Assembly: GCA_965277805.1 (NCBI GenBank)
Contig: OZ255842.1
Coordinates: 3,296,001 to 3,360,000 of the forward strand
DNA: 64,000 nucleotides
Source: Candidatus Lustribacter sp.
GTDB lineage: Bacteria > Vulcanimicrobiota > Vulcanimicrobiia > Vulcanimicrobiales > Vulcanimicrobiaceae
Reading direction: 5' to 3'
The notes below the pieces were generated by a model. That model was not told the origin of the DNA. It did not search any database and saw only the letters and a program-made list of their open reading frames with translations. Positions 20,868-37,022 of the stretch are shown piece after piece (positions within the stretch are counted from its first letter, which is position 1; each line of letters begins with the position of its first letter). A program made the translations under genes and the position numbers.

Positions 20868-22223
20868 GTGGATGCCACGGACGACATCGCAGCTTTTGGT
20901 TACAAGCAGGAGCTGAAGCGCTCGCTCGGCCTCGTCGACCTGCTCACGTACGGTCTCGTCTTCATCGTGCCCATCGCGCCGGTCGCGGTATTCGGCATCG
21001 TGTTCAATGCCAGTCACGGCATGGTTCCGCTCGTCTACGTCATCGGGCTCGTTGCGATGCTCTTCATCGCGCTGAGCTACATGACGATGTCGGCCGCGTT
21101 TCCGGTGGCGGGATCGGTGTACTCCTACACGTCGTTGAGCCTCGGCCCCGCCGCCGGCTTCTTCGCGGGCTGGGCGATTCTGCTCGATTACGTGCTGCTT
21201 CCGACGCTTTCGTACGTGGTCGCGGCGATCGCAATTCAATCGGTGTTCCCGAACGTCTCGGGCCCGCTGTGCATCATCGTCATGATCGTCATCGCGACGG
21301 TCATCAACTATCTTGGTATCGAAGCCACCGCGCGCACGAGCTTCGTGCTGCTCGCGTTCCAGATCTTAATCTTGCTGATCTTCTGCGTGATTGCGTTCGC
21401 AGCGGTCGCACACCACGCCGGCGGGGCGCACTTCTCGCTCGCACCCTTCTACAATCCGGCCGAAGTGACGCCGGCGCTGATCTTCGGCGCGCTCTCGCTC
21501 GCCGTGCTCAGCTTTCTGGGCTTCGATGCGATCTCGACGCTGTCCGAAGAATGCCGCGAGGGACCGCGCATGGTCGGCCGCGCCACCATCCTCGCGCTTT
21601 GCGCCTCGGCCGCGCTGTTCATCGCACAAACGTGGCTCGCGTCGCTCTTCGACTTGGGCCGAACGAGTCTGCCGCCGGGCGCCGCAACCGACGGCGCATT
21701 TTACGACGCGAGCGCGCTGGCCGGCGGCCCGGTGCTCAAGTTTCTGCTCGCCGTGCCGGGCATCTTCATCTCGTCGCTCGCCGGCGCGGTCACGGCGCAA
21801 GCCGCCACCGCGCGCATCCTCTTCGGCATGGCGCGCGACGGCGCGTTACCACGGGCACTCGCCTACATCGACCCCCAACGCAAAGTACCGACGCGGACGG
21901 TCTTGCTGGTCGCGGCGGTCACGCTCGTGACCGGCACGACGCTCGCCGGCCGCCTGGAACTGCTCACCTCGATGGTGAGTTTCGGTGCGCTGCTGGCGTT
22001 TCTGCTGCTCCAGGTGTCGGTCGTGGCGCACTTCATCGTGCGCGAGCGCAGCCGCAACTGGCTCCGCTACCTCGTCTCCCCGGCCGTCGGCTTCGCCATC
22101 ATTGCCTACGTGCTGGTCAATGCCGAAAATAATGCCAAGCTGGCCGCGGTGGCCTGGATGGTGGCCGGGCTCGCTATCTTCGCGGCCTTGCGGTTTGCCG
22201 GCCGGACGGTGCTTCCGCCCTGA
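20868..22223 (+). CDS. APC family amino acid/polyamine permease (PuuP/PlaP-like)
   Basis: FGYKQELKRSL, GSVYSY, FLGFDAISTLSEE and ARILFGMARDG motifs; start at GTG 20868 is approximate. Confidence 0.9.
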   Translation: MDATDDIAAFGYKQELKRSLGLVDLLTYGLVFIVPIAPVAVFGIVFNASHGMVPLVYVIGLVAMLFIALSYMTMSAAFPVAGSVYSYTSLSLGPAAGFFAGWAILLDYVLLPTLSYVVAAIAIQSVFPNVSGPLCIIVMIVIATVINYLGIEATARTSFVLLAFQILILLIFCVIAFAAVAHHAGGAHFSLAPFYNPAEVTPALIFGALSLAVLSFLGFDAISTLSEECREGPRMVGRATILALCASAALFIAQTWLASLFDLGRTSLPPGAATDGAFYDASALAGGPVLKFLLAVPGIFISSLAGAVTAQAATARILFGMARDGALPRALAYIDPQRKVPTRTVLLVAAVTLVTGTTLAGRLELLTSMVSFGALLAFLLLQVSVVAHFIVRERSRNWLRYLVSPAVGFAIIAYVLVNAENNAKLAAVAWMVAGLAIFAALRFAGRTVLPP

Positions 22224-22320
22224 TCGAACGCCCGTTCGCTCGCCGCGCGGGACGCCGTGCGGCTCAAACTCGTCCCATTGTACGGTAGGCCCCAGCCATA
22301 TAAACGCGAGTGTAGAGAGC

Positions 22321-25300: not shown

Positions 25301-25632
25301 TCACGGCGACCGCGATCGACGCGGCCGTCGGCGGCGTACGCTATCGCGCGTGGCGCGGTCCGCACGCGCTCCACCCCACGATCGCGCCGCACGGACCGCT
25401 CGTCTGCGAGATTTGGGATGAGGCCGTGTCGCGTTCGCTCGGCGGCTGCACGTATCACATCACGCATCCGGGCGGCCGCAATTACACGACCTTTCCCGTC
25501 AACGCCTACGAGGCGGAAGGCCGGCGGCTCGCGCGCTTCGAGCCGTTCGGCTTTACGCCGGGCGTTTTCGTGCCGCCGGCGCTGACGCCGAACCCGGATT
25601 TTCCGCACACGCTCGATCTGCGGCGTCGCTAG
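22321..25632 (+). CDS. Transglutaminase-like domain fused to DUF2126 putative amidoligase
   Basis: Bact_transglu_N start; triad motifs GSCRD / DLHAW / GLDPT; LTMGGEPTF, TPDPGVIEVN, GTGGGNH and EFRSFEMPPH of DUF2126. Confidence 0.92.
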   Translation: MSIRVALHHMTRYTYDRRVNLGPQVIRLRPAPHCRTPITAYRLDVQPANHFLNWQQDPQANWLARVLVPDPTTELSVTVDLVADLAVINPFDFFLEASAEQYPFAYDPQLALELAPYLVAEPLGQRFENYLAAIDRTPKPTTAFVFGLNAGLQHDVRYVIRMEPGVQTPDETLELGSGSCRDSAWLLVNLLRRLGLAARFASGYLIQLKADVQALDGPSGATQDFTDLHAWCEVYLPGAGWVGLDPTSGLFAGEGHIPLACAANPLSASPISGTVDPCEVTFGFEMSVTRVYEPPRVTKPYSEAQWRAIDALGEHVDQALEAGDVRLTMGGEPTFVSVDDMDAEEWTTGAVGPTKRDFADTLVRRLRDRFAPGAALHYGQGKWYPGEPLPRWAFALYWRGDGKPMWHDADLIARERASAQPTEADAAALARGVAERINVDPAFVAPVYEDARTLVVKEADLPENVTAFDSKLEDPEERARLARSFTRGLNVPAAYVLPVQRWNAIHAGRWRSEHWTTRLGRLHLVPGDSPAGLRLPLASLPHLEENDRPTVVPRDPFASLAPLPDTTAADDPYAPPQQFVSAGAADPRRMQQFVEQGIAIDGSVRTAISIEPRDGRLCVFMPPTESAADYLELLGAVEQSAAELGQPVHIEGYAPPYDPRINVIKVTPDPGVIEVNIHPARSWRDAVAITTTIYEEAHQARLTTEKFQLDGKHTGTGGGNHIVVGAATPVDSPFLRRPDLLKSIVGFWQNHPSLSYMFSGLFIGPTSQAPRVDEARLDSLYELEIAFSEVPPRSSARVSPWLVDRIFRNLLIDVTGSTHRTEICIDKLYSPDGPAGRLGLVEFRSFEMPPHAEMSLAQQLLIRALMARFWDEPYDAGLVRWGTALHDRFMLPQFVWTDFLDVLRDLKAHGFTFDPAWFQPHWEFRFPRYGSVQYDGVKLELRGALEPWNVMGEEGTAGGTVRYVDGSVERLEVTISGFTAGRHHVIVNGRRVPLTATAIDAAVGGVRYRAWRGPHALHPTIAPHGPLVCEIWDEAVSRSLGGCTYHITHPGGRNYTTFPVNAYEAEGRRLARFEPFGFTPGVFVPPALTPNPDFPHTLDLRRR

Positions 25633-25639
25633 CGCAAAC

Positions 25640-28153
25640 GTGGCCAATGCAGCTCCGCTCTTCGGTGAAGAGGCCCTCGGACGTTACGACGAGTTGATCG
25701 ACGGCTCGGGCGCCGTGCGTCCGCACTGGCAGCGTTTGGCCGCGGCCTTCGCCGCGATGGGACCGGACGAATACCGGCATCGCATCGAGTCGGCCACGCG
25801 CATGGTGCGCGAAAACGGCGTCACGTACAACGCATACGACGAAGCGTCGGGGCTCGACCGGCTCTGGCAACTCGACATCGCACCGTTCGTCGTCAGCGCC
25901 GGCGATTGGGCGATCATCGAAGCCGCCGCCGGGCAGCGCGCGCGGCTGGCCAACGCGATCCTGCACGATCTCTACGGCGAGCAGCGCCTTCTGCGCGAGG
26001 GGATCGTGCCGCCGCACCTCGTGCTCGGTCATCCGCAGTATCTGCGCGCGCTGCAAGGCGTGGTTCCGCCGAACGGCGTGCACGTTCACCTCTACTCGAT
26101 GGACATCGCGCGGATGCCCAACGGTTCGTGGACCGTCCACGCCAGCCGCGCCGATGCGCCGACCGGGCTCGGCTACGCGCTCGAAAACCGCGTCGTCGTC
26201 AGCCAGACGTTTCCGGAACTCTTCGGCGATCTCGGCGTCCAGCGTTTAGCGACGTTTTTCCGGCATCATCGCGACGCCGTCGTGAACCTCGCCGGCGGCG
26301 TCGCCGGTCACGCCGTTCTTCTCACGCCCGGTCCGTACAACGAAGCCTATTTCGAACACGCGTATCTGGCGCGCTACTTAGGTCTCGAACTCGTCGAAGG
26401 CGACGATCTCTCCGTGCGCGAGGGCATGGTCTATCTGCGCACGCTGGGCGGCCTCGAGCGCGTCTCGGTCATCTTCCGCCGGCTCGACTCCGACTTCGCC
26501 GATCCGCTCGAGCTGCGCGCGGATTCCGCTCTCGGCGTTCCCGGTCTCGTGGAAGCGATTCGCGCCGGCAACGTCGTCATGGCAAACGCGCTTGGCGGCG
26601 GCGTCGTCGAATCTCCGGCACTCGATGCCTATCTGCCGAACGTTGCGCGCGCGCTGTTCGGCGAAGATCTGCTCTGCCGCGACATTCCCACGGTCTGGTG
26701 CGGCACGTCGTGGGGCCGTGCCGAAGGGCTCGCGCGCCTGCGCACAGGGATCGTTCGCAGCGCGTTCGACGCCTGGCCGATCTTTTCGCGCGGCTCGTCG
26801 GCGCGTTCGGGCAGCGATCTCGGCGCCGACGAAATCGTCGCCGTGGCCGACACGATCGAGCGGCGCGGGGCGACGATGGTCGTTCAGGATCTCGTTCCGC
26901 TGGGCGTCGCACCGACGTTCGAACGCGGGAACTTCACCTCGCGGCCGATGACGCTGCGCGTCTTTGCGGCCTGGACGCCCAACGGTTACGTGGTGATGCC
27001 GGGCGGGCTGGCCCGCATCGCGAGCGACGATTCCGTGCGCGCGATCTCGATGCAGTCGGGCTCGGCCAGCAAGGATGTGTGGGCGCTCGCCAGCGGTCCG
27101 GTCGACACGTTTAGCCTGTTGCGGCCGCCGACGGCGCGCGTGGAGATCCGACGCTCCGGAAACGAAGCGCCGAGCCGCGCGATGGACAATCTGTTTTGGC
27201 TCGCGCGATACGCCGAGCGCCTCGAGCATTTGGTTCGCGTTCTGCGCGCGGTGGTGATCCGGTTGGCCGGCGACGGCGGGTCGACCACCACGATGACGGC
27301 CGTCGCGCTCGTGCAGCGTTTGCTGCTCCCGCTCAAGTACGTCACCGAGGAAGCCGTCGAGGAAGCCGTTGCGGGCAACGATGCCGCGCTGCGCGACGAA
27401 GTCGACGACGTCATCTTCGGCAAGGAGCTGATCGGACTGCAGCGGCTGCTCCAGCGCGTCGCGCGGACGGCGTGGGCCGCGCGCGACCGGCTCTCGCTCG
27501 ATACGTGGCGCGCCATCTACGCGCTGACCACGCGCGATACGCCCGACGACACGCCCGATGCGTTCGGCTGGGCCGGCGCGCTCGCATATCTCGACATGCT
27601 GATCCGGCGCACCGCCGCGCTTTCCGGCCTGGCCGATGAAAACATGACGCGCGGCAACAACTGGCTCTTCTTCGATCTCGGACGTCGCATCGAGCGCACG
27701 CTCGCCGCGTGCGACGTGCTGCGCCGCACGCTCACCGTTGCCGACGAGCGTGAGAGCGGCGCGATTCAGGTCGCACTCGAAATCGCGGACAGCGCGATGA
27801 CCTATTCGTACCGCTACCAGAACGCGTTTCAAGCCGCGCCGGCGATCGATCTGCTCTTGCTCGATGCGAGCAACCCGCGCGCCGTCGCATTTCAGATCGA
27901 TGCGATCGCGCGGCACACCGGCGATCTGCCGATGATCACCGAGGCGCAGCAGCACGCGCAGGGTCGCATGATCGCGCTGAGCCTGAAGGCGGAGATCGCC
28001 TCGGCCGACGCGTACGCCCTGGCAACGATCGGCGCCGGACGCGAGCGGACGGCGTTGATCGCGCAGCTGGACGCGACCGAGGGCGCGGTCTCGCGGATTG
28101 CCGAAGTCGTCGGCGACGCCTACCTGCAGCATCTGCGGCGCTACCGCGCGTGA
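25640..28153 (+). CDS. Circularly permuted type 2 ATP-grasp protein fused to alpha-E (DUF403) domain
   Basis: APTGLGYALENR, LTPGPYNEAYFEHAYLARYLG, DPLELRADS.LGVPGL, MPGGLAR and KDVW; alpha-E motifs LFWLARYAER and LGRRIER. Confidence 0.92.
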   Translation: MANAAPLFGEEALGRYDELIDGSGAVRPHWQRLAAAFAAMGPDEYRHRIESATRMVRENGVTYNAYDEASGLDRLWQLDIAPFVVSAGDWAIIEAAAGQRARLANAILHDLYGEQRLLREGIVPPHLVLGHPQYLRALQGVVPPNGVHVHLYSMDIARMPNGSWTVHASRADAPTGLGYALENRVVVSQTFPELFGDLGVQRLATFFRHHRDAVVNLAGGVAGHAVLLTPGPYNEAYFEHAYLARYLGLELVEGDDLSVREGMVYLRTLGGLERVSVIFRRLDSDFADPLELRADSALGVPGLVEAIRAGNVVMANALGGGVVESPALDAYLPNVARALFGEDLLCRDIPTVWCGTSWGRAEGLARLRTGIVRSAFDAWPIFSRGSSARSGSDLGADEIVAVADTIERRGATMVVQDLVPLGVAPTFERGNFTSRPMTLRVFAAWTPNGYVVMPGGLARIASDDSVRAISMQSGSASKDVWALASGPVDTFSLLRPPTARVEIRRSGNEAPSRAMDNLFWLARYAERLEHLVRVLRAVVIRLAGDGGSTTTMTAVALVQRLLLPLKYVTEEAVEEAVAGNDAALRDEVDDVIFGKELIGLQRLLQRVARTAWAARDRLSLDTWRAIYALTTRDTPDDTPDAFGWAGALAYLDMLIRRTAALSGLADENMTRGNNWLFFDLGRRIERTLAACDVLRRTLTVADERESGAIQVALEIADSAMTYSYRYQNAFQAAPAIDLLLLDASNPRAVAFQIDAIARHTGDLPMITEAQQHAQGRMIALSLKAEIASADAYALATIGAGRERTALIAQLDATEGAVSRIAEVVGDAYLQHLRRYRA

Positions 28154-29028
28154 GCACATACATCGTCCGCCACCGGACCACGTACACCTACGAATCCGAC
28201 GTCGCCTACTCGCGCATCGTCGCCCATCTCGTCCCGCGCGAGACGCCGCGCCAGCAGCGGCTCTTTACCGAGGTGACCGTCGAGCCGAAACCGCTCAAGC
28301 GCTTCGAGCGCACGGATTTTTTCGGCAACACCACCAGCTGGTGCATCATCGACGAGCCGCACGACGAACTCGACGTCACCGCCGAGAGCCGCGTGTCGGT
28401 CGAACCGATACCGAACTACACGTTGGTGCCGGGGACCGCCTGGGAGGACGTCCGCTCGTCGTTCGAGCCGCCGCAACCGCCGGACATGTTCGACGTCGTG
28501 CAGTTCACGTTCGATACGCCCCTGACGGAAAGCGATCGCGGTGTCGTCTCGTATGCGCGCCGGAGCTTTACGCCCGGGCGCAAGCTCTTCGCCGCGGTCC
28601 TCGACCTCAACTCGCGCATTCATGCCGACTTCGCGTTCGACAAGAAAGCGACCGACACGCACACGACGGTCAAAGAAGCCTTTGCGTTACGGGCGGGTGT
28701 CTGCCAAGATCTCGCCCACGTCGGCATTTCGTGCGTGCGCTCGATGGGCCTCGCCGCGCGCTACGTCAGCGGCTATTTGCGCACGCATCCGCCGCCGGGG
28801 CGCGAACGTCTCATCGGCGCGGATGCCAGCCACGCGTGGTTTTCGGTCTGGATCCCGCCCTTCGGCTGGGTCGACTTCGACCCCACCAACGACATGCTGC
28901 CCAGCAGCGAACACATCACCGTTGCCTGGGGCCGCGAATACGGCGACGTGACGCCGATCCACGGCATCATCACCGGCGGAAGCGAGCACGAAGTCGACGT
29001 CGCCGTCGACGTGATCCCCGAACTCTAG
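28150..29028 (+). CDS. Transglutaminase-like protein
   Basis: H.T.Y.Y N-domain; triad GVCQD / SHAW / FDPTN; AWGREYGDV.P; GTGA overlap with the upstream gene. Confidence 0.93.
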   Translation: MSTYIVRHRTTYTYESDVAYSRIVAHLVPRETPRQQRLFTEVTVEPKPLKRFERTDFFGNTTSWCIIDEPHDELDVTAESRVSVEPIPNYTLVPGTAWEDVRSSFEPPQPPDMFDVVQFTFDTPLTESDRGVVSYARRSFTPGRKLFAAVLDLNSRIHADFAFDKKATDTHTTVKEAFALRAGVCQDLAHVGISCVRSMGLAARYVSGYLRTHPPPGRERLIGADASHAWFSVWIPPFGWVDFDPTNDMLPSSEHITVAWGREYGDVTPIHGIITGGSEHEVDVAVDVIPEL

Positions 29029-30035
29029 TCGTTGATGACGGACAACCCGAAGATCGAAGGTAAGCCCGTGACGATCTGCTTGAACGAATCGCCGTAGTCG
29101 CTCGACATCCATACGGAACCGTCGCTCATGCCGGCGAGGAACGACCCGGCGGTGCGGCGATCCGTCGTGACCGCACGCGGCGAGGGCAGAATCATTTCCG
29201 GCAAACCGCCGCCGCTGAGCATCGTCCAGTGCTTGCCCTGATCTTCGCTGCGGAAGAGTCCGGCGTTCGCGCCCTGCGGGCCGCGCCACGTGAGCGGCGG
29301 ACCGGCCGATGCCGCGGTGAAGAGCACGTTGGGCTTCGATGAATCGACGGCCAGCTGCGACATGTACCTGCGGCTGAGGCCGTCGTTGGCCAACGTGAAG
29401 TGCTCGCCGCCGTCCTCGCTGCGGAAACAGCCTTTGCCGCTCGTCGTGACGATCACGTCGGCGTTGTCGGGCATCACGGTGACGGTGTGCGAATCGAATT
29501 CCGCCCCGTTCTTGATCGTCGCCCACGTTTCGCCGCCGTCAACCGAGCGGATGATGTAGCCTTCTTCGATCGCGCCGAAGATGCGCTTGGGATCGCTGCG
29601 CGAGAGCCCGAGGCCTTTGACGTGCGCGATGTAAGGCGGACCGGGGAACGTCCATTCTTTGGTTTCGGGCATCGTGTGCATCTGCTCGCTGAACGTCCAC
29701 GACTCACCGTAGTCGACGCTCTTGAAGACGGCCGCCGGTCCGGTCCCGACGTAGATTTCACCGGTGTCCGGATGCTGCGCGATGCACCAGCATTGCTTGA
29801 AGATGATGCCGTTGTTCTTCTCGGCCCACGTCTTGCCGCCATCGTCGGACCGGAAGACGCCGCCGCGCCCGGTAACGGCGTAGCGCCGGTTCGGCAAACG
29901 ATGATCGGCGAGGATCGGCCACACGCGTCCTTGACCCTGCAGGCCCACCGGCTGCACGTCGCGCACGGCGCCGTTGAGGCGGCCCGCAAAGAGACCGTTT
30001 TCGGTGGAAACGTAGAGCGTCGACTCGTCGGCCAT
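29025..30035 (-). CDS. BNR/Asp-box beta-propeller protein (WD40/YVTN-like), no signal peptide
   Basis: Repeated S.D.G..W Asp boxes (SDDGGKTW, SVDYGESW, SVDGGETW, SEDGGEHF, SEDQGKHW, SSDYGDSF). Confidence 0.85.
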   Translation of the reverse strand: MADESTLYVSTENGLFAGRLNGAVRDVQPVGLQGQGRVWPILADHRLPNRRYAVTGRGGVFRSDDGGKTWAEKNNGIIFKQCWCIAQHPDTGEIYVGTGPAAVFKSVDYGESWTFSEQMHTMPETKEWTFPGPPYIAHVKGLGLSRSDPKRIFGAIEEGYIIRSVDGGETWATIKNGAEFDSHTVTVMPDNADVIVTTSGKGCFRSEDGGEHFTLANDGLSRRYMSQLAVDSSKPNVLFTAASAGPPLTWRGPQGANAGLFRSEDQGKHWTMLSGGGLPEMILPSPRAVTTDRRTAGSFLAGMSDGSVWMSSDYGDSFKQIVTGLPSIFGLSVIND

Positions 30036-30051
30036 GTTCGTATCTCCGGGA

Positions 30052-30963
30052 TTATGCGGAAGCGGGATGGAGCGCCGACCGCGCACAACTGACGACGAAA
30101 TCGGTGAGGCGATCGCTCAGCAAGTGCTCGTCGATGCCGCTCGCGTTCAGATGCGCGATTTGCGAAACGTGGTTGTGATGCGGTAAGTAGAGCACGTTCG
30201 GCCACCGGCCGTCGCGCTCGAAGAATGCTTGGGCGAGATTCCACGACTGACGGTGGGCACCCGGCGCGTCGAACTCCGAGATCGAAATCATCACCGGCAA
30301 ACCCGACGCCACGAGCCCCGGGACGCACGATGCCTCGGCGCGCGCCTGCGCGTCGTTGCCGAAGTAGGCGACGACGTGCGGCGCCGACGCGCTGAACTCG
30401 TACGATCCCGACATCAGCACGATCCCGTTGACGCCGCCGCCGGGCCGCGCGTGCAGATCGGGTCGCGCACCGTAGCACGCCACGTGCGTCGCGCCGGCGG
30501 ATTGTCCCAGCAGCGTGATCGCGTCCGGATCGCCGCCGTACGGCGCGATATTTGCCCGCACCCAGTCAACGGCCGCGCCGACGTCGGCCGCACCGGCGGG
30601 ATATTTGTGGGCCGGCGCGAGGCGATAGGTCATCGTAACGCCGACGAAACCGTTGCGCGCCGCCCACACGCCGACGTTGTCGTTGTACGGTGTTCCCGGC
30701 GTGCGCTTGTCGCCGCCGATGTAGGCGCCGCCGTGAACGAAGAGCACCACCGGCCGCGCGCCGGCGGCCTCGGCCGGAGCGAAGATGTCCAGCCGATGGC
30801 GCGGGTCGGGCCCGTACTGCTCGTCGCGCACCACGCGCAAGTTCGCATACGGCTCCGTTTCGTGATACGGGGTCAGCACCGCGCGCACCGCGGCGCCCTC
30901 TTCGGGAGCGAGCGGCACGCTGAGCTTTATCGCGGCCACCGCGCGGATCAGGTCTTCACGCAT
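30052..30963 (-). CDS. Alpha/beta hydrolase (HSL-type esterase/formamidase-like)
   Basis: HGGAY oxyanion motif, GQSAG nucleophile elbow, HNH near the C-terminus. Confidence 0.9.
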   Translation of the reverse strand: MREDLIRAVAAIKLSVPLAPEEGAAVRAVLTPYHETEPYANLRVVRDEQYGPDPRHRLDIFAPAEAAGARPVVLFVHGGAYIGGDKRTPGTPYNDNVGVWAARNGFVGVTMTYRLAPAHKYPAGAADVGAAVDWVRANIAPYGGDPDAITLLGQSAGATHVACYGARPDLHARPGGGVNGIVLMSGSYEFSASAPHVVAYFGNDAQARAEASCVPGLVASGLPVMISISEFDAPGAHRQSWNLAQAFFERDGRWPNVLYLPHHNHVSQIAHLNASGIDEHLLSDRLTDFVVSCARSALHPASA

Positions 30964-31891
30964 GATTCATCACCAGTTTATCAACCGTAATCGGTTGGGC
31001 AAGCATTTTGTACTTCACGGCCGCATCGAAGATCGACTGCAGGGCGGGCACTTCGAAGGTCAGCGCATAGCTCTTGGCCCCGATGTCTTGCTGCTGACCG
31101 GTATACTTCGTGATGATCGCCGTGGCTTGCTTGGCGTTTTTGGGATCGTTGGCCCAACGCGCGGCCTTGCGCATCGATTCGGCGAAGGCGCTCACGGTTT
31201 GCGGGTTCTGCGCGATCCAGTCGTTCGTGCCGAACCAGGCCGACACGATGATCCGCGGGTTGCCGAGGCCGTCGAAGGGGTTGCCGAGCGTGCGAATCTG
31301 CGGCCGCACCTGGGTCAACATCGGGTCGGTGAGCGTGGCGGCGTCGACCGTGCCGCGTTCGAGTGCCGGAGCGACTTGCGCCGGCACCAGCTCGACGAAC
31401 TTGACCGCGGTCGAGTCGCCGCCATTGCGGTCGATCCAGGCGTTGAGCGCCAAGCGGATGAGCCCGCTCAAGCTGATCGTCCCGACCGTCTTGCCGCTGA
31501 GATCCTTGGCCGTCTTGATCGGGCTCGACGGCCACACCACGAACGCGTTGGAGGGGTTGCTGTTCACCGCCACGGCCGCCGGCGAAATCCAGCTGATCGG
31601 GATGCCGTGTTCGCGCGCTTGCGCGAGGGTGAGCGTGTTGGCGATGCCGATCTGCGCGTTCCCGGTGGCGATCGCCTCGATCGCCGCTTGACCCTTCGTC
31701 AAGTTCGTGATCTCGACGTCCAAACCGGCGCGCTTGAACATGCCCGTTTCCTGTGCGAAAAACGCCTGGAATCCGTCGGCATCGATGACGATGACGTGGA
31801 GCTTCGCCGGCGTTGCGGCGCGCAGCATCTTCGAGCGCACGGCCGCCAGCGCGGACATCAGGCTCGTAACGAAAGCAGCGCGGCGCATCAT
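30956..31891 (-). CDS. ABC substrate-binding protein, NMT1/SsuA/THI5 type
   Basis: Tat-like leader MMRRAAFVTS; GMFKRAGLDV and DLSGKTVG motifs. Confidence 0.87.
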   Translation of the reverse strand: MMRRAAFVTSLMSALAAVRSKMLRAATPAKLHVIVIDADGFQAFFAQETGMFKRAGLDVEITNLTKGQAAIEAIATGNAQIGIANTLTLAQAREHGIPISWISPAAVAVNSNPSNAFVVWPSSPIKTAKDLSGKTVGTISLSGLIRLALNAWIDRNGGDSTAVKFVELVPAQVAPALERGTVDAATLTDPMLTQVRPQIRTLGNPFDGLGNPRIIVSAWFGTNDWIAQNPQTVSAFAESMRKAARWANDPKNAKQATAIITKYTGQQQDIGAKSYALTFEVPALQSIFDAAVKYKMLAQPITVDKLVMNHA

Positions 31892-31897
31892 GGTGTC

Positions 31898-33364
31898 CTA
31901 CCGAACGTCGAAGGCGAGGTGATACGCCGGATAACGCTCGCCCGGATGGTCGCGCGCGTTGAGCATCGGCTGCAAGAAGTAGCCGCCGGCAACGGCGTTG
32001 ACGTCGGCCGGCGTTCCGGGACCGAGAATTTGACCCGTATAGATCGTGGGATACAAGTCGATGTAGTGGCGCCCGATGCGGCCGGGCGCGCGAATCGTGA
32101 TCGCGACGTCGCCTTGGCTGTTGAAGCCGCACGCGTAGCCCAAGTAGCCGTTGTCGAGATCGAGCGTATACGTGTTGCCGGTTTCCGACCAGCCGATGCC
32201 GGTGAGATGAATCGACACCGGGTCGCCGGGGTGAACGGCGGCGGGCGCGATCGGATCGAGCTCCGGCAAAATCGAATATGCGACCGTCGCCTCAACCGAT
32301 GCGTCGGGCCCGCTCGCGGCGCGCGCGACGATGTGGTGCGGACCTCCCAGATCCGCCGGCGTTTTCACGTGCAGCACGAACGCGCCGCCGGCGTCGCTGC
32401 GCACGGTCGTGAGGGGACCGCGCTGCGTTTCCCAGCCGGTCGCGCTCAAGCGGTTTCCGACGACGGTCTCCCATTCGACCGCGATCGCGCTCGCGGGGGC
32501 AAAGCCGCTGCCGTGCAGCGTGAGCGGGCTGCCGACGGCGCCGCTCGTGTAGTCGACATCGAGGTGCGGCGTGCCGGGTAGCGGCGGCGGATCGACCGCG
32601 ACCGCGCGCGGCAAGGCTTGCGCAGCTGCCGGCGCTGTCGCGAGCGCCGGTCCGCCAACGATGCGGAAACGCGCCGCGAGAATCATCGGGATGATCGCCT
32701 GATAGTCGGGGCTCTGCTGCAAGTTGAGGTAGGGGCCGGCGTGACCTTCGATCGCTTGCAGCGTGTGGAAACCGGGTTCACCGCTGGCGCGGATCGTCAC
32801 GCGTGCCGTGCCGTGCGTCGTGATGCCGGAGAGCCAGCCGGTTTGCGCGCCGTCGTAGAGCAGATGCCACACGGCTTGATAGAAGCGGTAACCGATCCCG
32901 GTCATCGTGATCGTGATCGGCGTGCCGGACGGACCGGAAACCGGTTGCATGGTCAGGTGCGGGATCACGGTGAAGCCCTGATGCGCGACAAGCGCGCCGC
33001 CGCTTTCGGGATGCAGTTCCACGTCGTGGATGTAACCGAAATCTTCCGGTACGGTGAAACGCGCGGTCAACGCTCCGGCGGCGTCGCTCGATGCGACCAG
33101 CAGCGTTTGCGCCGATTCGGGCGCAACGATGCCGTAGAACTTCGGGCCCTCGACGCGCCAGTTCGGACGCGCGCTGCGCCATACCAGCGCGAAGCGCGCC
33201 CCGGGCGGCAGGCCCGTGGCGCGTGCGATCACCGTCGTTCCGACCTTCGCCGCGACCGGTGCGAACGTCAGACGCGCCTCGCTACTCTGCGCGGTCGCAG
33301 CGGAAACGACGGCGCAGCACAGGGCTGCCGCCGCGGTTAGCACCGCGAGCGGCCGGCGAATCAT
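31898..33364 (-). CDS. Secreted hypothetical protein with four Ig/IPT-like modules (A-B-A-B internal duplication)
   Basis: Signal peptide ending ATA-Q; repeated blocks SDAAGAL..FTVPEDFG.IH / SDAGGAF..VKTPADLGG.H and TGIGY..YD...GW....G....IRASG..GFH / TGIGW..LD...GY....G....IRAPG..GRH. Confidence 0.8.
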   Translation of the reverse strand: MIRRPLAVLTAAAALCCAVVSAATAQSSEARLTFAPVAAKVGTTVIARATGLPPGARFALVWRSARPNWRVEGPKFYGIVAPESAQTLLVASSDAAGALTARFTVPEDFGYIHDVELHPESGGALVAHQGFTVIPHLTMQPVSGPSGTPITITMTGIGYRFYQAVWHLLYDGAQTGWLSGITTHGTARVTIRASGEPGFHTLQAIEGHAGPYLNLQQSPDYQAIIPMILAARFRIVGGPALATAPAAAQALPRAVAVDPPPLPGTPHLDVDYTSGAVGSPLTLHGSGFAPASAIAVEWETVVGNRLSATGWETQRGPLTTVRSDAGGAFVLHVKTPADLGGPHHIVARAASGPDASVEATVAYSILPELDPIAPAAVHPGDPVSIHLTGIGWSETGNTYTLDLDNGYLGYACGFNSQGDVAITIRAPGRIGRHYIDLYPTIYTGQILGPGTPADVNAVAGGYFLQPMLNARDHPGERYPAYHLAFDVR

Positions 33365-33897
33365 TTCGCGGCCGCGGGGTCCGTCTTCGCGACGATCTGC
33401 AAAACGGCGACGCCGACTTCCTGACCGATCGGCGCGAACGCGGCGGTATGCCCCGCGTTGTCCGTGGCCGCGGCCGTCCAGGTGAGCGTGCCCGTCGGAT
33501 GGTCGTGCGAGACCGGGTACGCCGCTGCGAAGTAGAGGGCGTGGCTGGGCACCGGAACGTTCGGCGGCGGATGCGGCTGATACACGAGCGGGACCTTCGC
33601 GCCTTCACCGGTGGTGACGACGACTTTGACCCCGCGCTGCGTGATTTGCTCACCCGTTAGCGGGACGCCGTTCGCATCGGCCACCACGGCCCGGAAGATG
33701 ATCGTGTCGCCGGGCGCAAAGACGCTCTGCGTCACGCACAACGCGCCCTGCACGCCTTTGCCTTGCCGAGCGCTCGTGACGACGTCGGCATTGAGGCGCA
33801 GCGCCGCGGCACCCGGGGCCGATTGTGCGGAAGCGGGCAGCGCACCGGTACAAAGACCCAAGAATGCGGAGACGGCGAGGCCGATGAGAATTCGCAT
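33361..33897 (-). CDS. Secreted hypothetical beta-sandwich protein
   Basis: Signal peptide ending ASA-Q; CVTQSVF..GDTIIFR, YQPHPP and HPTG motifs; ATGA overlap with the downstream gene. Confidence 0.78.
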   Translation of the reverse strand: MRILIGLAVSAFLGLCTGALPASAQSAPGAAALRLNADVVTSARQGKGVQGALCVTQSVFAPGDTIIFRAVVADANGVPLTGEQITQRGVKVVVTTGEGAKVPLVYQPHPPPNVPVPSHALYFAAAYPVSHDHPTGTLTWTAAATDNAGHTAAFAPIGQEVGVAVLQIVAKTDPAAAK

Positions 33898-33938
33898 GTG
33901 GCGATACTTGGTTCGGCCGACATGGAAACCTTCTGCCG

Positions 33939-34880
33939 TCAGGTCAATGCGGCCGGAATTTTCTCACGAAAATGTTCGAACGTGGCGCGCAGACCACTCG
34001 CGAGATCCGTCTCGGCCGTCCAGTCGAGTTCGCGCGCCGCCTTTGCGCAGTCGAAGTACACGTCCCGGATATCTCCCGGCCGTCGCGGCGCGTGATCGAT
34101 CGGCGCGCTGAACCCGCTGGCCGAACACAACGCCTCGTAGATCGCGTTGACCGACGTCTTCCGTCCGGTCCCGATCGCGTAGATCTCACCCGACCCGCGC
34201 TTGAGTGCGGCGAGGTTCGCGCGAACGACATCTCCCACGTACACGTAGTCGCGCGTCTGCTCGCCGTCCCAATCGATTCGCACGCCGTTTCGCGCAAGAA
34301 ATTTTCCGATGAAGATCGCGATGACTCCGGCTTCGCCGTTCGGGTCCTGCCGAGGTCCGTAGACGTTGCCGTAGCGCAGCGCGGTGAAGTCGAGCCCATG
34401 TTCGGCCTGATAGAAGCGCAGGTAGTGCTCCGCGACCATTTTGGTGATGCCGTATGGAGAGACCGGGCGCTGTGGTGAAGCCTCGGTCACCGGCAGTTGC
34501 GCGAGATCTCCGTACGTGGCGGCGCTCGATGCGAAGATCACCTTTCGCGTTCCGGACGCCACCGCGGCATCGAGCACGTTGAGCAATCCGATCACGTTCA
34601 CTCCGGCGTCGAATTGCGGATCGCGCGATCCGATTGCGACGCTGTGTTGCGCCGCATGGTGACAGACGATCTCCGGATTGAACTCGTGAAATATTCTTTT
34701 GACGCCGGCGTCGCGGATATCCAAGTGCACGAACGACGCGCGCGAGTCGACGTTTTCGCGCCGTCCGCCACCATGCTGCCACAGGTTGTCGATCACGACG
34801 ACGTCGTGCGAACGGGCAACGAGCGCATCGACGATGTGTGAGCCGATGAATCCGGCTCCGCCGGTGACGATTATCCGCAT
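33939..34880 (-). CDS. NAD-dependent epimerase, UDP-glucose 4-epimerase-like
   Basis: TGGAGFIGS, SSAATYG, YGITK and RYGNVYGPRQDP..EAGVIAIF motifs. Confidence 0.93.
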   Translation of the reverse strand: MRIIVTGGAGFIGSHIVDALVARSHDVVVIDNLWQHGGGRRENVDSRASFVHLDIRDAGVKRIFHEFNPEIVCHHAAQHSVAIGSRDPQFDAGVNVIGLLNVLDAAVASGTRKVIFASSAATYGDLAQLPVTEASPQRPVSPYGITKMVAEHYLRFYQAEHGLDFTALRYGNVYGPRQDPNGEAGVIAIFIGKFLARNGVRIDWDGEQTRDYVYVGDVVRANLAALKRGSGEIYAIGTGRKTSVNAIYEALCSASGFSAPIDHAPRRPGDIRDVYFDCAKAARELDWTAETDLASGLRATFEHFREKIPAALT

Positions 34881-34940
34881 GACAATAGATATTCACACCA
34901 AACGAAGGTAGCGCCAAGATGCTCGCGGCCCACACGTACT

Positions 34941-34954
34941 AGGACCTTCGTCCC
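34941..34954. promoter_or_regulatory. DosR-box-like 14-bp site AGGACCTTCGTCCC
   Basis: Pseudo-palindrome, 11/14 match to GGGACTTTAGTCCC; lies between the divergent epimerase and sensor kinase. Confidence 0.55.
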
Positions 34955-35096
34955 CATCAAATTCTTGGGCACGTAAACCTTTCGCCAAGCACGTTTCCCG
35001 GCGCATACCGATGCTGTACATATGTTCTGACGTGTTCCTAAATTGCGCATGGCTAGCGACTAACCGCTCATTAACTCACTCGGCGCGGACGCAGCG

Positions 35097-37022
35097 ATGA
35101 ACTTCCGGCGCTGGCTGGCGATTCTCGTGCTCGTACCGCTCGTTCTCGTCGTCTGCACAACCGCCGGCCTCATCGCCCTCGCTCAGGCAACGCGTCAAGC
35201 CGAAGGCGACGCCCAACGCGTCTCGGAGCTCTATTCGAGCGTCTCCGAACTCACGCTGAGCCTGCTGCAATTGGAGCTGCAAGCGCGAGCGTATGTCTCA
35301 ACCGGCGATGTTAGCGATCTCGACGCCTATGAGGGCACGCGCCAAGCCTTCGACTTCCAAATGACACATCTGTACGCCGACTCGCGTCCCGAACCGGTCC
35401 TCGCAGCTCAAGTTCCGGGGTTGGAACGCCTCGCTCGGCAGACGCTCGCGCAATTGGATGCGGCCGTGCGCACCCGGCAGGCAAGCCGGCTCCCGCAAAG
35501 CGATCGCGGCGGAACGGAAATGTTCTCGGTTGCTCAAAAACAATTCGCGGACACCGCGTATCAACTCCGCGCGCGCCGTCTGGGCGGGCTCACGCACCTT
35601 TGGGACGAAGGCGCGGCCCTCATCGCAGTGGCGCTCACGTGCGGTCTCTGCGTCACGATCGTCTTGGCAATCGTGGCGCGCCGTCATCTCGCGCGCCGGA
35701 TCGAGTACGTCGAGCGCCGGGCGCACGCATACGAGACGAAGGACGATGCGGCAGCCCTTCCCCCGGTCGGCGGCGGCGACGAAATCGCCCACCTCGACGA
35801 CGCGCTGCGAACGATGGCGTCGACCATCCGCACGCGGGAATCCGAGCTGCGGGTCGCGCTGGGCGAAGCCGAGGCGGCCTCACGGGCGAAGTCGGCATTC
35901 GTCGCAACGATCAGCCACGAAATCCGGACCCCGCTCAACGGCGTGATCGGGATGAGCGAGCTGTTGGCGGAAGCCGACCTCGCGCCGCCGCTCCGCGAAT
36001 ACGTTGAAACCATCAGTACGTCGAGCAAGCTGCTGCTCGAGCTGATCAACGGCATCCTCGACTTCTCGAAGCTGTCGGCGGGGGCGCTGACGCTAAACGC
36101 CGGCCCGGTCATGGTCGAGCCGCTCGTTCGCGAAACGGCTGCGCTTTTTTCGCGGCAAGCGCGGGACGCGGGCCTGGATTTGCGCGTCGACATTGCGGCA
36201 AACGTCCCCCTGACGGTGGACGCCGACGCGTTGCGCTTGCGGCAGATTCTCGCCAATCTCATCGGAAATGCCGTGAAGTTTACGCCGGCCGGGTCCGTCA
36301 CGGTCTCGGTCGCAGGGGGCCCGATCATCGACGAACGGTCGACGCTGTGCTTCGACGTGATCGATACCGGGGTCGGAATAGACCCCTCGATGCAAGAGAC
36401 GATCTTCGAGCCCTTTCGGCAAGCCGACATGTCCACGACCCGCCGCTTCGGCGGCACGGGACTCGGACTATCGATCTCGCGCCACCTGGCCGCGATGATG
36501 AACGGCTCGATCGCGGTACGCAGCACCCCCGGCTCGGGCACGACCTTCTCCCTCAGCGTCCCGTTACGCGTCCTCTCGGCCGTTGCCGCCGCGTCGCCGG
36601 CCGGCGGCCCTCCATCGAACGCCGCCGGCGACGAGCGCCACGAAGCCGTCCTGCTGGTCGAGGACAACGAAGTCAACCAACGCGTCGCCACGCGCATGCT
36701 GCAGCGTTTGGGGCTCCACAGCGACGTCGCAGCCAACGGCAGCGAAGCGCTTGGCAGGCTGGAACGTTCGCGCTACGACCTCGTCTTCATGGATTTGCAG
36801 ATGCCGGTGATGGACGGCTTTGAAGCATCAACGGAACTGCGGCGCCGGGAGCAAGCGACCGGCGGACACGTTCCGATCATTGCAATGACCGCCAACGCGC
36901 TGCCGGAGGACCGGGAGGCCTGTTTCGCAGCCGGCATGGACGACCACGTTGCCAAGCCGGTGACGCTCGCCGAACTGCGCCGCGTCGTGCAGCGATGGCT
37001 TCCGGAACACGCCGACGCATGA
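35097..37022 (+). CDS. Hybrid sensor histidine kinase (CHASE3-like sensor, HAMP, HisKA, HATPase, REC)
   Basis: Two TM helices; [32 protein letters not shown]; receiver VEDNEVN...FMDLQMP...AKP. Confidence 0.95.

What the first reader, a model, noticed from the sequence alone, without database searches (positions are those of the whole stretch)
31898..33897. Uncharacterised two-gene secreted system: small beta-sandwich plus duplicated Ig-like protein with His/Cys motifs
Seen: two translationally coupled (ATGA) genes, both with cleavable signal peptides. The 488-aa protein is an A-B-A-B duplication whose modules each end in a His motif (YIHD, GFHT, GPHH, GRHY), with TTHG, YACGFNSQGD and DHPGE..P.YH segments that look like conserved functional loops. 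The 178-aa partner has one mature Cys and YQPHPP/HDHP. I recognise no named family. Inference: a periplasmic heterodimer with a metal site (Cu/Fe) or an inter-subunit Cys link, perhaps a new metalloenzyme or metal/ligand-capture module feeding the adjacent SBP and hydrolases.
Basis: partly seen in the sequence, partly recalled or inferred. Interest (0 to 1): 0.7.

Follow-up and report, generated by a model that had tools for sequence, protein, structure and literature searches.

The report
Unnamed secreted pair wired to respiration
Two overlapping genes encode a small and a large secreted all-beta protein of a widespread, unnamed family that in other bacteria is repeatedly fused or adjacent to respiratory electron-transfer proteins, so it may be the working part of an undescribed periplasmic redox system.

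Summary
The observation largely holds. Two ATGA-overlapping minus-strand genes (178 aa, 488 aa) encode proteins with N-terminal signal-like segments. The large one is an A-B-A-B duplication of Ig/TIG-like domains. Neither belongs to a Pfam, NCBIfam or PDB-sequence family. The pair is a strict cassette: the small gene lies directly upstream in 74 of 80 related loci from at least six phyla, and the other six lack upstream DNA. No other neighbour is conserved. Each protein keeps one mature cysteine (C54; C412). Over 90 large-subunit sequences the strict non-Gly/Pro invariants (W392, N397, N405, Y410, C412, Y442, D472, H473) sit in domain 4. The small protein's histidines and the TTHG histidine are not conserved. 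New here: relatives link the pair to five kinds of electron-transfer partner. These are a cytochrome c fused to the small subunit, rquA plus NapC/NirT, a Rieske/cytochrome b-c unit, a DoxD-like membrane protein between the two genes, and a DsrO/DsrP-like FeS/NrfD module. My best reading (about 0.5) is a periplasmic heteromeric redox module of unknown substrate and cofactor. The window's copy has no such partner nearby. The link to the adjacent binding protein and hydrolases is lineage-specific. Complex prediction gave only weak support.

The parts
33361..33897 (-). Small subunit gene, 178 aa (P0002): signal-like N-terminus plus one Ig/MG2-like beta-sandwich
   Evidence: ORF and translation. 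Sub-threshold MG2 hits in 14 of 39 family members. A homolog lies directly upstream of the big gene in 74 of 80 loci.
31898..33364 (-). Large subunit gene, 488 aa (P0001): signal-like N-terminus plus four Ig/TIG-like domains (A-B-A-B)
   Evidence: ORF and translation. AF2 model with pLDDT 84.6 and pTM 0.79, all-beta. Duplication shown by hhalign.
33361..33364 (-). ATGA overlap: stop of the small gene and start of the large gene
   Evidence: Sequence read directly.
33826..33897 (-). Presumed Sec signal peptide of the small subunit (residues 1-24, ending ASA)
   Evidence: By eye from the translation. No predictor was run.
33290..33364 (-). Presumed Sec signal peptide of the large subunit (residues 1-25, ending ATA)
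   Evidence: By eye. The model is disordered over residues 1-27.
33736..33738 (-). Codon of C54, the only mature Cys of the small subunit
   Evidence: Invariant in 39 of 39 and present in 118 of 119. Coordinates checked.
32966..33274 (-). Domain 1 (residues 31-133), type A
   Evidence: Strands in the model. D1 vs D3 gives E 2.8e-23.
32660..32959 (-). Domain 2 (residues 136-235), type B, without Cys/His at the positions of the D4 site
   Evidence: Model. D2 vs D4 gives E 3.6e-21, and the hhalign pairing shows S179 opposite C412 and S218 opposite H473.
32270..32566 (-). Domain 3 (residues 267-365), type A
   Evidence: Model. Best structural matches are MG domains of C5/C3, Z 9.7-9.8.
31901..32257 (-). 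Domain 4 (residues 370-488), type B, carrying nearly all strict invariants
   Evidence: W392, N397, N405, Y410, C412, Y442, D472 and H473 are invariant in 90 of 90. The D4-only model has pLDDT 77.9, with a low-confidence loop over residues 445-480.
32129..32131 (-). Codon of C412 (in YACGFN), the only mature Cys of the large subunit
   Evidence: Invariant in 90 of 90. Coordinates checked.
31943..31951 (-). Codons of D472-H473-P474 (DHPG loop)
   Evidence: Invariant in 90 of 90. Coordinates checked.

Best explanation
The two genes encode the subunits of a secreted (periplasmic) heteromer of a widespread, unnamed family. It most likely acts as the redox-active, substrate-facing module of a respiratory or redox-maintenance system. 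It would exchange electrons with the quinone pool or with c-type cytochromes through whichever adaptor the host supplies.

Shown:
- The strict two-gene cassette.
- The all-beta four-domain duplicated architecture.
- One invariant mature cysteine in each subunit.
- Concentration of the invariant polar and aromatic residues in domain 4.
- Recurrent fusion or operon linkage of relatives to five different electron-transfer partners.

Inferred:
- The two proteins bind each other.
- The working site lies on the B-C, C'-E and F-G loops at the D3-proximal pole of domain 4 (W392, N397, C412, Y442, D472, H473), possibly completed by C54 of the small subunit. This follows from strand order in the models and the usual up-down topology of Ig-like sandwiches. 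No coordinates were available to me.
- Because export appears to be Sec-type, the cofactor would be one acquired in the periplasm (copper is the obvious candidate), or the chemistry would be thiol-based (disulfide or persulfide).

Unknown: the substrate and the direction of electron flow. The rquA linkage in two alphaproteobacteria hints at a need for low-potential quinol, that is, a reductase. The window's own copy has no adjacent partner and would have to use carriers encoded elsewhere.
For: Cassette. A small-subunit homolog lies immediately upstream on the same strand in 74 of 80 loci. The other 6 start within 86 nt of the big gene. In the Deinococcota sample it is present in 42 of 46 loci; 3 of the 4 without are cut by a contig end. 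Only these two genes and their antisense shadow ORFs are shared by more than 13 of 80 loci.

Conservation..

Electron-transfer links:
(a) The small subunit is fused C-terminally to a class I cytochrome c (PF00034, E 1e-10 to 1e-13) in L042 (Calidithermus chliarophilus DSM 9957), L020, L039, L121/L109 and L110.
(b) rquA (NF038261, 276 and 279 bits, cut-off 175), then a NapC/NirT tetrahaem cytochrome (TIGR02161, E 1e-69), then small, then big, in L051 and L052. L056 has a dihaem cytochrome c, NapC, then the pair. L049 has a cytochrome c gene directly downstream.
(c) A Rieske protein plus a cytochrome b/c fusion lie upstream in the Chloroflexota locus L058.
(d) A 185-193 aa membrane protein with a weak DoxD match lies between small and big in 7 Deinococcota loci.
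(e) A DsrO-like 4Fe-4S protein (about 175 bits, cut-off 200), a NrfD/DsrP-like membrane protein and a 188-aa anchored protein precede small and big in L116, with no other candidate catalytic subunit on that strand. The DsrO-like and DsrP-like genes also precede the pair in L115, L118 and L125.

Partner types are clade-specific on a quick tree, and the cytochrome c fusion needs two changes. CXXCH genes are rare in these loci overall: 16 of 719 called genes.

The eLife 2018 paper PMC5953543 (passages read) reports that rquA is often linked to respiratory genes.

Complex prediction: median ipSAE 0.56, best control 0.00, weak support.
Against: - Most loci show no redox neighbour: 66 of the 74 loci of the first set, 5 of the 16 long-flank Deinococcota loci, and the window itself.
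- No known cofactor-binding motif is present. There is no CXXCH in the window's proteins and no cupredoxin-type C-x(2-4)-H-x(2-4)-M pattern after C412.
- Only one histidine (H473) plus the repeated GxH histidine H433 are kept in domain 4.
- The GxH histidines occur in all four domains and tolerate R or N in 1-3 of 90 sequences. They may be structural.
- All fold matches are generic Ig/MG/FN3-like: Z <= 9.8 for the whole model, Z <= 8.2 for D4, and Foldseek found nothing at E <= 0.001 for D4.
- The DoxD match is weak: PF04173 at 24.7 bits in 1 of 3 tested, NF041179 far below its cut-off. The DsrO and DsrP matches are below NCBIfam cut-offs.
- Linkage to electron carriers would also fit an accessory role (assembly, tethering, protection) rather than catalysis.
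- The complex prediction is weak, and one of three runs scored 0.01.
Confidence: 0.5

Rival explanations
1. The pair is a non-redox binding or scaffold protein of the cell envelope. An array of Ig/TIG/MG-like domains recognises a glycan, a protein or a surface. The cysteines form a structural inter-subunit disulfide. Occasional linkage to respiratory genes reflects tethering or protection of those complexes, or chance synteny.
For: - The architecture is all-beta Ig-like. The best structural matches are S-layer proteins, adhesins, MG domains and carbohydrate-enzyme accessory domains.
- Many invariant residues are aromatic, Asn or Asp, as in sugar- or Ca-binding sites.
- Most loci lack redox neighbours.
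- In the window and in L119 and L124 a BNR/Sortilin-like propeller lies nearby.
Against: - Structural Ig-like arrays rarely keep 30-50% identity and dozens of invariant residues across six phyla.
- Five different electron-transfer partners appear in separate clades, including in-frame cytochrome c fusions. The DsrO/DsrP-like operon read in full (L116) has no other candidate catalytic subunit.
Confidence: 0.22
2. The pair is a thiol-based sulfur carrier or sulfur-compound oxidoreductase that works like SoxYZ or a thiosulfate:quinone oxidoreductase partner. C54 and/or C412 would carry a persulfide or sulfur-oxyanion adduct that cytochromes or quinone modules oxidise or reduce. This is a special case of the best explanation, with cysteine rather than metal chemistry.
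For: - There are two beta-sandwich subunits, each with a single invariant periplasmic Cys.
- Partner families are ones best known from sulfur metabolism: DoxD-like and DsrO/DsrP-like proteins, and an octahaem tetrathionate-reductase-family cytochrome divergent in L056.
- SoxYZ chains are among the top Foldseek rows for D4, but at E 0.008-0.02. VIA gives Z 7.6, rmsd 2.8 over 87 residues.
Against: - The SoxY hallmark, a C-terminal GGCGG arm, is absent. The small protein ends ...AKTDPAAAK, and C54 lies near the N-terminus of the mature protein.
- The fold matches are not significant.
- No sox, sulfurtransferase or sulfite genes were seen beside the pair.
- Family names such as 'polysulphide reductase NrfD' do not indicate a substrate.
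Confidence: 0.13
3. One reading: a metal- or ligand-capture module that feeds the adjacent NMT1-type binding protein, esterase and BNR hydrolase.
For: In the window the five genes are tightly packed on one strand. The gap from the big gene to the binding-protein gene is 6 nt, and the following genes overlap. L001 and L002 keep this order.
Against: The arrangement is confined to the closest relatives. The esterase recurs only in L001 and L002. NMT1-type proteins recur only in Eremiobacterota-type loci and in varying positions. No transporter permease or ATPase lies beside them in the window. In other phyla the pair has entirely different neighbours.
Confidence: 0.05
4. An alpha-2-macroglobulin-like thioester or protease-trap relative. 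The MG-like domains and the C412-G-F-N415 segment recall the CGEQ thioester motif.
For: Foldseek's top rows are bacterial alpha-2-macroglobulins and complement C3/C4/C5 (E about 1e-12 to 1e-9, but TM <= 0.19). Sub-threshold MG2 hits occur in 14 of 39 small proteins.
Against: There is no thioester (TED) domain, no bait region and no CGEQ. The protein has 488 aa against about 1,500. The MG2 scores are below the Pfam cut-off (best E 0.00043; window 15.2 bits against 32.8). Q417 is not conserved.
Confidence: 0.03

Closest known systems
Periplasmic oxidoreductases wired to the quinone pool by interchangeable adaptors (NapC/NirT/NrfH tetrahaem cytochromes; NrfC/NrfD-, PsrB/PsrC-, DsrO/DsrP-type modules; soluble cytochrome c)
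   Same: Relatives of the pair sit in operons directly behind such adaptors or are fused to cytochrome c. The adaptor differs between clades while the secreted pair stays the same. This is the pattern known for respiratory enzymes (recalled general knowledge; the NrfD review PMC8076601 was read in passages only).
   Different: Known catalytic partners are molybdo-, haem-, FeS- or copper enzymes of named families. This pair has no such family or motif and is built only of Ig-like domains. No activity is known. The window's copy has no adaptor nearby.
SoxYZ sulfur-carrier heterodimer
   Same: It has two small beta-sandwich proteins encoded side by side, periplasmic, with a functionally essential single Cys, serviced by cytochromes (recalled). 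There is weak structural resemblance to D4 (Foldseek E 0.008-0.02; VIA Z 7.6, rmsd 2.8, 87 aligned).
   Different: The pair has no C-terminal GGCGG arm and its Cys positions differ. The large subunit has four domains. There was no detectable sequence relation in the PDB sequence searches and no sox neighbours.
IPT/TIG (E-set) and macroglobulin MG domains
   Same: The fold class of all five domains. Some homologs reach the TIG model (P0195 31.2 bits, P0202 33.7 bits, cut-off 20.9). Four of the 120 listed hits carry PF01833. MG domains of C3/C5 are the best VIA matches to D3 (Z 9.7-9.8, rmsd 2.5, 93 aligned).
   Different: The window's proteins do not reach either Pfam threshold. These domain names describe a fold, not a function. 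The D4 invariants have no counterpart that I know of in those families.
Thiosulfate:quinone oxidoreductase DoxDA / DoxX-family membrane proteins
   Same: In one Deinococcota subfamily a 185-193 aa multi-helix membrane protein with a DoxD match is encoded between the two genes.
   Different: The match is weak: PF04173 at 24.7 bits in 1 of 3 tested, and NF041179 at 20-23 bits against a cut-off of 300. There is no DoxA. This gene is absent from the window's subfamily.
Copper sites built from Cys/His in beta-sandwich proteins (cupredoxins; CuA; inter-subunit CuA-like site of PmoD): recalled, not tested
   Same: These are secreted beta-sandwich proteins with Cys and His as the conserved candidates for ligands, and electron exchange with cytochromes.
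   Different: The cupredoxin ligand spacing is absent after C412 (read directly). There is no conserved Met: M467 varies. No cupredoxin appears among the listed fold matches. No copper-handling genes were seen beside the pair.

Membership tests
IPT/TIG domain (PF01833) | Pfam model match at or above the gathering score (20.9 bits) | tested here: not met
   P0001 gave no Pfam family at E<=0.1. Some distant homologs do pass (P0195 31.2 bits, P0202 33.7 bits), so the relation is at fold or superfamily level only.
Alpha-2-macroglobulin / MG2 (PF01835) | MG2 model match at or above the gathering score (32.8 bits) | tested here: not met
   P0002 scores 15.2 bits, E 0.028. 14 of 39 family members match only at E between 0.00043 and 0.1.
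Alpha-2-macroglobulin / complement thioester proteins | CGEQ thioester motif within a helical TED domain, and a bait region | tested here: not met
   The only mature Cys is in YACGFNSQGD, inside a beta-sandwich domain. The model has no helical domain. Q417 is not conserved.
SoxY/SoxZ | C-terminal GGCGG carrier arm on SoxY | tested here: not met
   The small protein ends ...VAKTDPAAAK, with C54 near the N-terminus of the mature chain.
SoxY/SoxZ | Significant structural or sequence match to solved SoxYZ | tested here: inconclusive
   Foldseek E 0.008-0.02 for D4. VIA Z 7.6, rmsd 2.8, 87 aligned. Not found by the PDB sequence and profile searches.
Cupredoxin (type 1 copper) | Ligand pattern His ... 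Cys-x(2-4)-His-x(2-4)-Met near the C-terminus | tested here: not met
   C412 is followed by GFNSQGDVAITIRAPGRIGRH. The next His is 21 residues on, and there is no conserved Met.
Cupredoxin (type 1 copper) | Cupredoxin fold match | tested here: inconclusive
   No cupredoxin appears among the rows listed. An absence from the lists does not exclude the fold.
Class I cytochrome c (PF00034) | CXXCH haem-binding motif and Pfam match | tested here: not met
   The window's two proteins have no CXXCH. The motif and Pfam match exist only in the C-terminal extension of small subunits of L020, L039, L042, L110 and L121.
Quinone-pool-linked periplasmic oxidoreductase (functional class) | Operon linkage or fusion to a quinol-interacting or cytochrome adaptor | tested here: inconclusive
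   Met in relatives: 8 of 74 loci of the first set, 11 of 16 long-flank Deinococcota loci, and 3 of 30 short-flank loci. Not met in the window, where the ORFs I scanned between 21985 and 43462 show none.
Quinone-pool-linked periplasmic oxidoreductase (functional class) | Bound redox cofactor and catalytic activity | not testable with these tools
   This needs purification, metal analysis, spectroscopy and assays.

The most novel reading that the evidence does not exclude
The pair is the catalytic core of a previously unrecognised class of periplasmic respiratory oxidoreductase. Its active site is built on the loops of an Ig-like domain (C412, H473, D472, Y410, Y442) together with a cysteine from a second small subunit. 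It would be either an inter-subunit copper centre or a redox-active thiol pair. Evolution has plugged this core onto at least five different quinone-pool or cytochrome adaptors and spread it by horizontal transfer among soil and saline-soil bacteria of many phyla.
Probability: 0.33. Interest if true: 0.85.

Novelty: categorically new. Interest (0 to 1): 0.72.

Why it matters
If the reading is right, this family would add a new catalytic building block to the known set of bacterial respiratory modules. The family is sizeable: 609 representatives at 50% identity and 41 of 301 sampled Deinococcota genomes, but it is patchy elsewhere. A new module could imply an unrecognised electron acceptor or donor in soils, peat and saline sediments.

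The rquA-NapC-pair operon would also be a candidate use of rhodoquinol by a periplasmic acceptor, beyond the fumarate reduction it is known for (abstracts and passages).

The case is directly testable. One carrier, Calidithermus chliarophilus DSM 9957, is a cultured type strain whose small subunit already carries its own cytochrome c.

If the reading is wrong, the family is still a strictly coupled, highly conserved secreted pair with no annotation. That alone justifies a family definition.

Tried and rejected
- Sequence family searches: no Pfam, NCBIfam or PDB-sequence family for either protein, as single sequences or as profiles.
- ESM Atlas: only unnamed or TIG/MG2-labelled clusters.
- Fold searches with the whole model and with domain 4 alone: only generic Ig-like, MG and FN3 matches. 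Foldseek found nothing at E<=0.001 for D4.
- hhalign of the small protein against each domain of the large one: no relation, probabilities <= 1.2.
- Longer family members for fused domains: 17 were scanned. None had a cytochrome domain. One had a sub-threshold Cu_amine_oxidN1 hit (22.4 bits, cut-off 24.2).
- A 559-aa CarboxypepD_reg/Vgb_lyase-like protein next to the pair in L003: followed up and found only in L002 and, distantly, L067. It is absent from the window.
- Promoter and terminator scan of 28800-35200: nothing above shuffles.
- Complex prediction: weak support only. ipSAE runs 0.60, 0.56 and 0.01, best control 0.00, partner pLDDT at least 73, runs agree in at least 89% of contacts. 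No contacts were given, so the C54-C412 idea could not be examined.
- Earlier findings of this scan: nothing.
- Literature: three full-text searches and passages of three papers gave no description of this pair. Supplements of PMC5953543, which list rquA neighbours, were not opened and may name the NapC-type gene.
- The careful tree search did not finish. The tree cited is the quick IQ-TREE run of 89 rows. It leaves out L020, L039, L115 and L125: the first two were not in my input list, and the last two failed my length filter.
Full report
**What is in the window**

On the minus strand, ORF 33361..33897 (178 aa, P0002) and ORF 31898..33364 (488 aa, P0001) overlap by ATGA. Both begin with a hydrophobic segment ending ASA or ATA, which I take by eye to be Sec signal peptides. 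No predictor was run, and the twin-arginine-like RR of P0001 is not conserved in alignment A1. Outside these segments each protein has a single cysteine: C54 and C412.

Upstream, 41 nt away, lies an NAD-dependent sugar epimerase. Downstream on the same strand follow an NMT1/SsuA-type binding protein (6-nt gap), an alpha/beta-hydrolase esterase, and a BNR/Sortilin-like propeller. Other ORFs I scanned between 21985 and 43462 encode:
- transglutaminase / circularly permuted ATP-grasp proteins
- a hybrid histidine kinase
- LuxR-type regulators
- a sugar transferase

None is an electron-transfer protein. The genome is a single 5.53-Mb contig with one copy of the large gene.

**No named family**

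P0001 has no Pfam family at E<=0.1. Its only NCBIfam hit is a sub-threshold Ig-like domain (24.7 bits, cut-off 45). P0002 has only a sub-threshold MG2 hit (15.2 bits, cut-off 32.8). Searches of PDB sequences with the single proteins and with profiles found nothing meaningful.

Sources name the homologs 'hypothetical protein'. In Calidithermus chliarophilus the large protein is WP_157202854.1, 'hypothetical protein'. The small one, which carries an extra domain there, is WP_245587687.1, 'c-type cytochrome'.

**Size and spread of the family**

- The large protein has 549 hits at E<=0.001 among 8,000 scored candidates.
- It has 609 representatives at 50% identity in 1.84 billion proteins, of which 84 reach E<=1e-30.
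- The small protein found 19 relatives as a single query and 875 as a profile.
- In species-representative genomes, 111 stretches encode a relative. The best 80 come from Eremiobacterota/Vulcanimicrobiota, Deinococcota (mostly Trueperaceae), Acidobacteriota, Alphaproteobacteria, Chloroflexota, Verrucomicrobiota, Limnochordia and others.

The distribution is patchy:
- 1 of 201 sampled genomes of the window's phylum (the window's own)
- 2 of 301 in the order of one alphaproteobacterial carrier
- 41 of 301 Deinococcota, with up to four copies per genome

On a quick tree the window's clade is nested among Deinococcota sequences (unrooted, careful search unfinished). Together with the patchiness, this suggests horizontal spread.

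**A strict two-gene cassette**

A profile of the small protein finds a homolog directly upstream, on the same strand, in 74 of 80 loci. The six without (L005, L021, L025, L030, L040, L043) have at most 85 nt of DNA upstream of the match. In the Deinococcota sample it is found in 42 of 46 loci. Three of the four without are cut by contig ends, and L126 appears to be an orphan.

All-against-all clustering of ORFs in the 80 loci shows that only these two genes (77 and 74 loci) and their antisense shadow ORFs are widely shared. The next clusters that are not antisense shadows of the two genes reach 10 loci, and those I checked belong to the acidobacterial loci. Homologs of the window's esterase and epimerase occur only in L001 and L002. 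NMT1-type proteins occur only in Eremiobacterota-type loci.

**Architecture**

The AlphaFold2 model (pLDDT 84.6, pTM 0.79) shows four beta-sandwich domains: about 31-133, 136-235, 267-365 and 370-488. Profile-profile comparison confirms the A-B-A-B duplication:
- N half vs C half: probability 99.95, E 1e-38
- D1 vs D3: E 2.8e-23
- D2 vs D4: E 3.6e-21

Structural neighbours are generic. MG domains of complement C5/C3 match D3 (Z 9.7-9.8, rmsd 2.5, 93 aligned). Other matches are S-layer, adhesin and glycosidase accessory domains. Domain 4 folded alone (pLDDT 77.9) gives Z <= 8.2 and no Foldseek match at E<=0.001. SoxYZ, a CARDB domain and superoxide reductase are among the non-significant top rows. 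Some homologs reach the Pfam TIG model. The small protein is not detectably related to any domain of the large one.

**Conservation**

In 48 sequences from at least six phyla, and then in 90 sequences that add two divergent Deinococcota paralog groups, the strict invariants other than Gly/Pro are W62, W392, N397, N405, Y410, C412, Y442, D472 and H473. All but W62 lie in domain 4.

They occupy the same strand position in all four domains, so they may be structural. H184 of 'TTHG' varies. In the paralogous domain 2, the hhalign pairing places S179 and S218 opposite C412 and H473, so D2 looks like a degenerate copy.

In the small protein only C54 and G136 are invariant, and its histidines are not conserved. 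The Cys is present in 118 of 119 small-domain ORFs.

From the strand order of the models (A, B, C, C', E, F, G as in domain 2) and the alternating direction of strands in Ig-like sandwiches, I infer the following. W392 and N397 lie on the B-C loop. C412-N415 lie on the C'-E loop. Y442 and D472-P474 lie on the long, low-confidence F-G loop. All would sit at the same, D3-proximal pole of domain 4. This is an inference.

**Do the two proteins bind?**

Translational coupling and strict co-occurrence argue for it. Complex prediction with my alignments gave ipSAE 0.60, 0.56 and 0.01 (median 0.56), against 0.00 for the best of three controls. Partner pLDDT was at least 73, and the runs agreed in at least 89% of contacts. 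The tool calls this weak support and gives no contacts.

**The new lead: electron-transfer partners in relatives**

(a) Cytochrome c fusion. The small subunit carries a C-terminal class I cytochrome c domain (PF00034, E 1e-10 to 1e-13, one CXXCH) in L042 (Calidithermus chliarophilus DSM 9957), L020 (= L106), L039, L121/L109 and L110. These belong to the same major clade as the window's protein, and the fusion needs two changes on the quick tree.

(b) rquA and NapC/NirT. In Alphaproteobacteria, L051 (Zhengella sp.) and L052 (Salaquimonas sp.) encode, in order and closely spaced:
- rquA (NF038261, 275.6 and 278.8 bits, cut-off 175)
- a NapC/NirT-family tetrahaem cytochrome (TIGR02161, E about 1e-69, below its own cut-off of 310.6 bits)
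- the small gene
- the large gene

L056 (Bauldia sp.) has a dihaem cytochrome c, NapC/NirT, then the pair, with an octahaem tetrathionate-reductase-family cytochrome (TIGR04315, 408 bits, cut-off 375) divergent. L049 has a cytochrome c gene directly downstream, followed by nuoA. A fifth relative from that order (L084) has no such neighbour.

(c) Rieske / cytochrome b-c. In the Chloroflexota locus L058, a Rieske protein and a cytochrome b/c fusion lie upstream on the same strand.

(d) DoxD-like membrane protein. In one divergent Deinococcota subfamily, a 185-193 aa multi-helix membrane protein lies between the small and large genes in 7 loci (L117, L119, L120, L121, L122, L123, L124). Its DoxD match is weak: PF04173 at 24.7 bits (cut-off 22.7) in 1 of 3 tested, and NF041179 at 20-23 bits (cut-off 300).

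(e) DsrO/DsrP-like module. In another subfamily (L115, L116, L118, L125) the pair follows a DsrO-like 4Fe-4S protein (174-177 bits, cut-off 200) and a NrfD/DsrP-like membrane protein (PF03916, E 1e-32 to 1e-39). In L116, read in full, a 188-aa C-terminally anchored protein lies between the module and the small gene. No molybdo-enzyme or cytochrome is present on that strand there.

Counts:
- 8 of the 74 loci of the first set have a partner.
- 11 of the 16 long-flank Deinococcota loci have one. I chose these 16 from the 34 places that had not been given loci.
- 3 of the 30 short-flank loci have one.
- The window itself has none.

Genes with a CXXCH motif are otherwise rare in these loci (16 of 719 called genes), and most of those 16 are the partners listed above.

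**Interpretation**

Interchangeable quinone-pool or cytochrome adaptors in front of a constant secreted module is the pattern of periplasmic respiratory enzymes. This is general knowledge. The NrfD review PMC8076601 was read in passages only and does not list this arrangement. In L116, the DsrO/DsrP-like operon I read in full, the pair is the only candidate for the substrate-facing part.

The rquA linkage suggests a demand for low-potential quinol. The eLife paper PMC5953543 reports linkage of rquA to respiratory genes (passages). The ISME J paper PMC11707229 describes rquA as sparse and horizontally spread (passages).

I therefore read the pair as a periplasmic heteromeric redox module. Because export looks Sec-type, a cofactor would have to be acquired in the periplasm. 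Copper liganded by C412, H473 and perhaps C54 is one option. A redox-active inter-subunit thiol pair or persulfide carrier is another.

Nothing here shows a metal, an activity or a substrate. The majority of loci, including the window, give no contextual hint. A non-redox binding or scaffold role remains a serious rival.

**Novelty and literature**

Three full-text searches and the scan's own records gave no description of this pair. The supplementary neighbour tables of PMC5953543 were not opened. The family has no Pfam or NCBIfam model. I rate it as a new kind of secreted two-protein module, with a moderately supported link to respiration and an open mechanism.

Noticed in passing
window 21985-29028 (+): A cluster encodes a DUF2126/transglutaminase fusion (1215 aa), a circularly permuted ATP-grasp plus Alpha-E protein (837 aa) and a transglutaminase-like protein (292 aa). 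It is adjacent to the operon on the opposite strand.
   Followed up: no
window 29025-30086 (-); L119 3086-4201 (-); L124 9519-10934 (+): A BNR/Sortilin-Vps10-like propeller (NCBIfam F510_1955 family, sub-threshold) ends the window's gene string. Distant homologs (phmmer E 6e-14 and 3e-16) lie near the pair in two Deinococcota loci of the DoxD-like subfamily.
   Followed up: partly
L053 4764-5270 and 5286-5786 (+): A Vicinamibacterales locus carries two tandem copies of the small-subunit gene upstream of one large gene. Both copies keep the invariant Cys.
   Followed up: no
L121 (G646:C1:1180400-1200000): One Deinococcota genome holds two pairs about 10 kb apart. One has a cytochrome c fusion and one has the DoxD-like gene between the subunits.
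   Followed up: partly
L055, L059, L063, L064, L066, L074, L080: In Acidobacteriota-type loci the pair sits between a divergent 477-aa amidohydrolase and genes resembling dihydropyrimidine dehydrogenase subunits (Fer4_20 + Pyr_redox_2; DHO_dh + Fer4_21). This looks like clade synteny with a pyrimidine-catabolism cluster.
   Followed up: no
L100 (G740:C208), and G735:C139, G677:C15: Some Deinococcota copies of the large gene contain in-frame stops (1 TAG, 1 TAG, 2 TGA). They may be pseudogenes or assembly errors.
   Followed up: no
L003 6525-8204 (+); L002 626-2302 (+); L067 1483-3153 (-): A roughly 555-aa CarboxypepD_reg plus Vgb_lyase/SGL-like propeller protein, carrying a single CXXCH in L003 and L067, lies near the pair in these loci. 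L042 11512-13383 (-) has a 622-aa propeller protein with weaker matches to the same Pfam families and no CXXCH. No such protein is in the window.
   Followed up: partly
L057 148-582 (+): An Rrf2-family regulator (the superfamily model TIGR00738 passes its cut-off) lies directly upstream of the pair in a Dehalococcoidales contig.
   Followed up: no
L126 5961-7436 (-): This is the only large-subunit gene with intact upstream DNA and no detectable small-subunit gene. It sits on a long branch in the tree.
   Followed up: no
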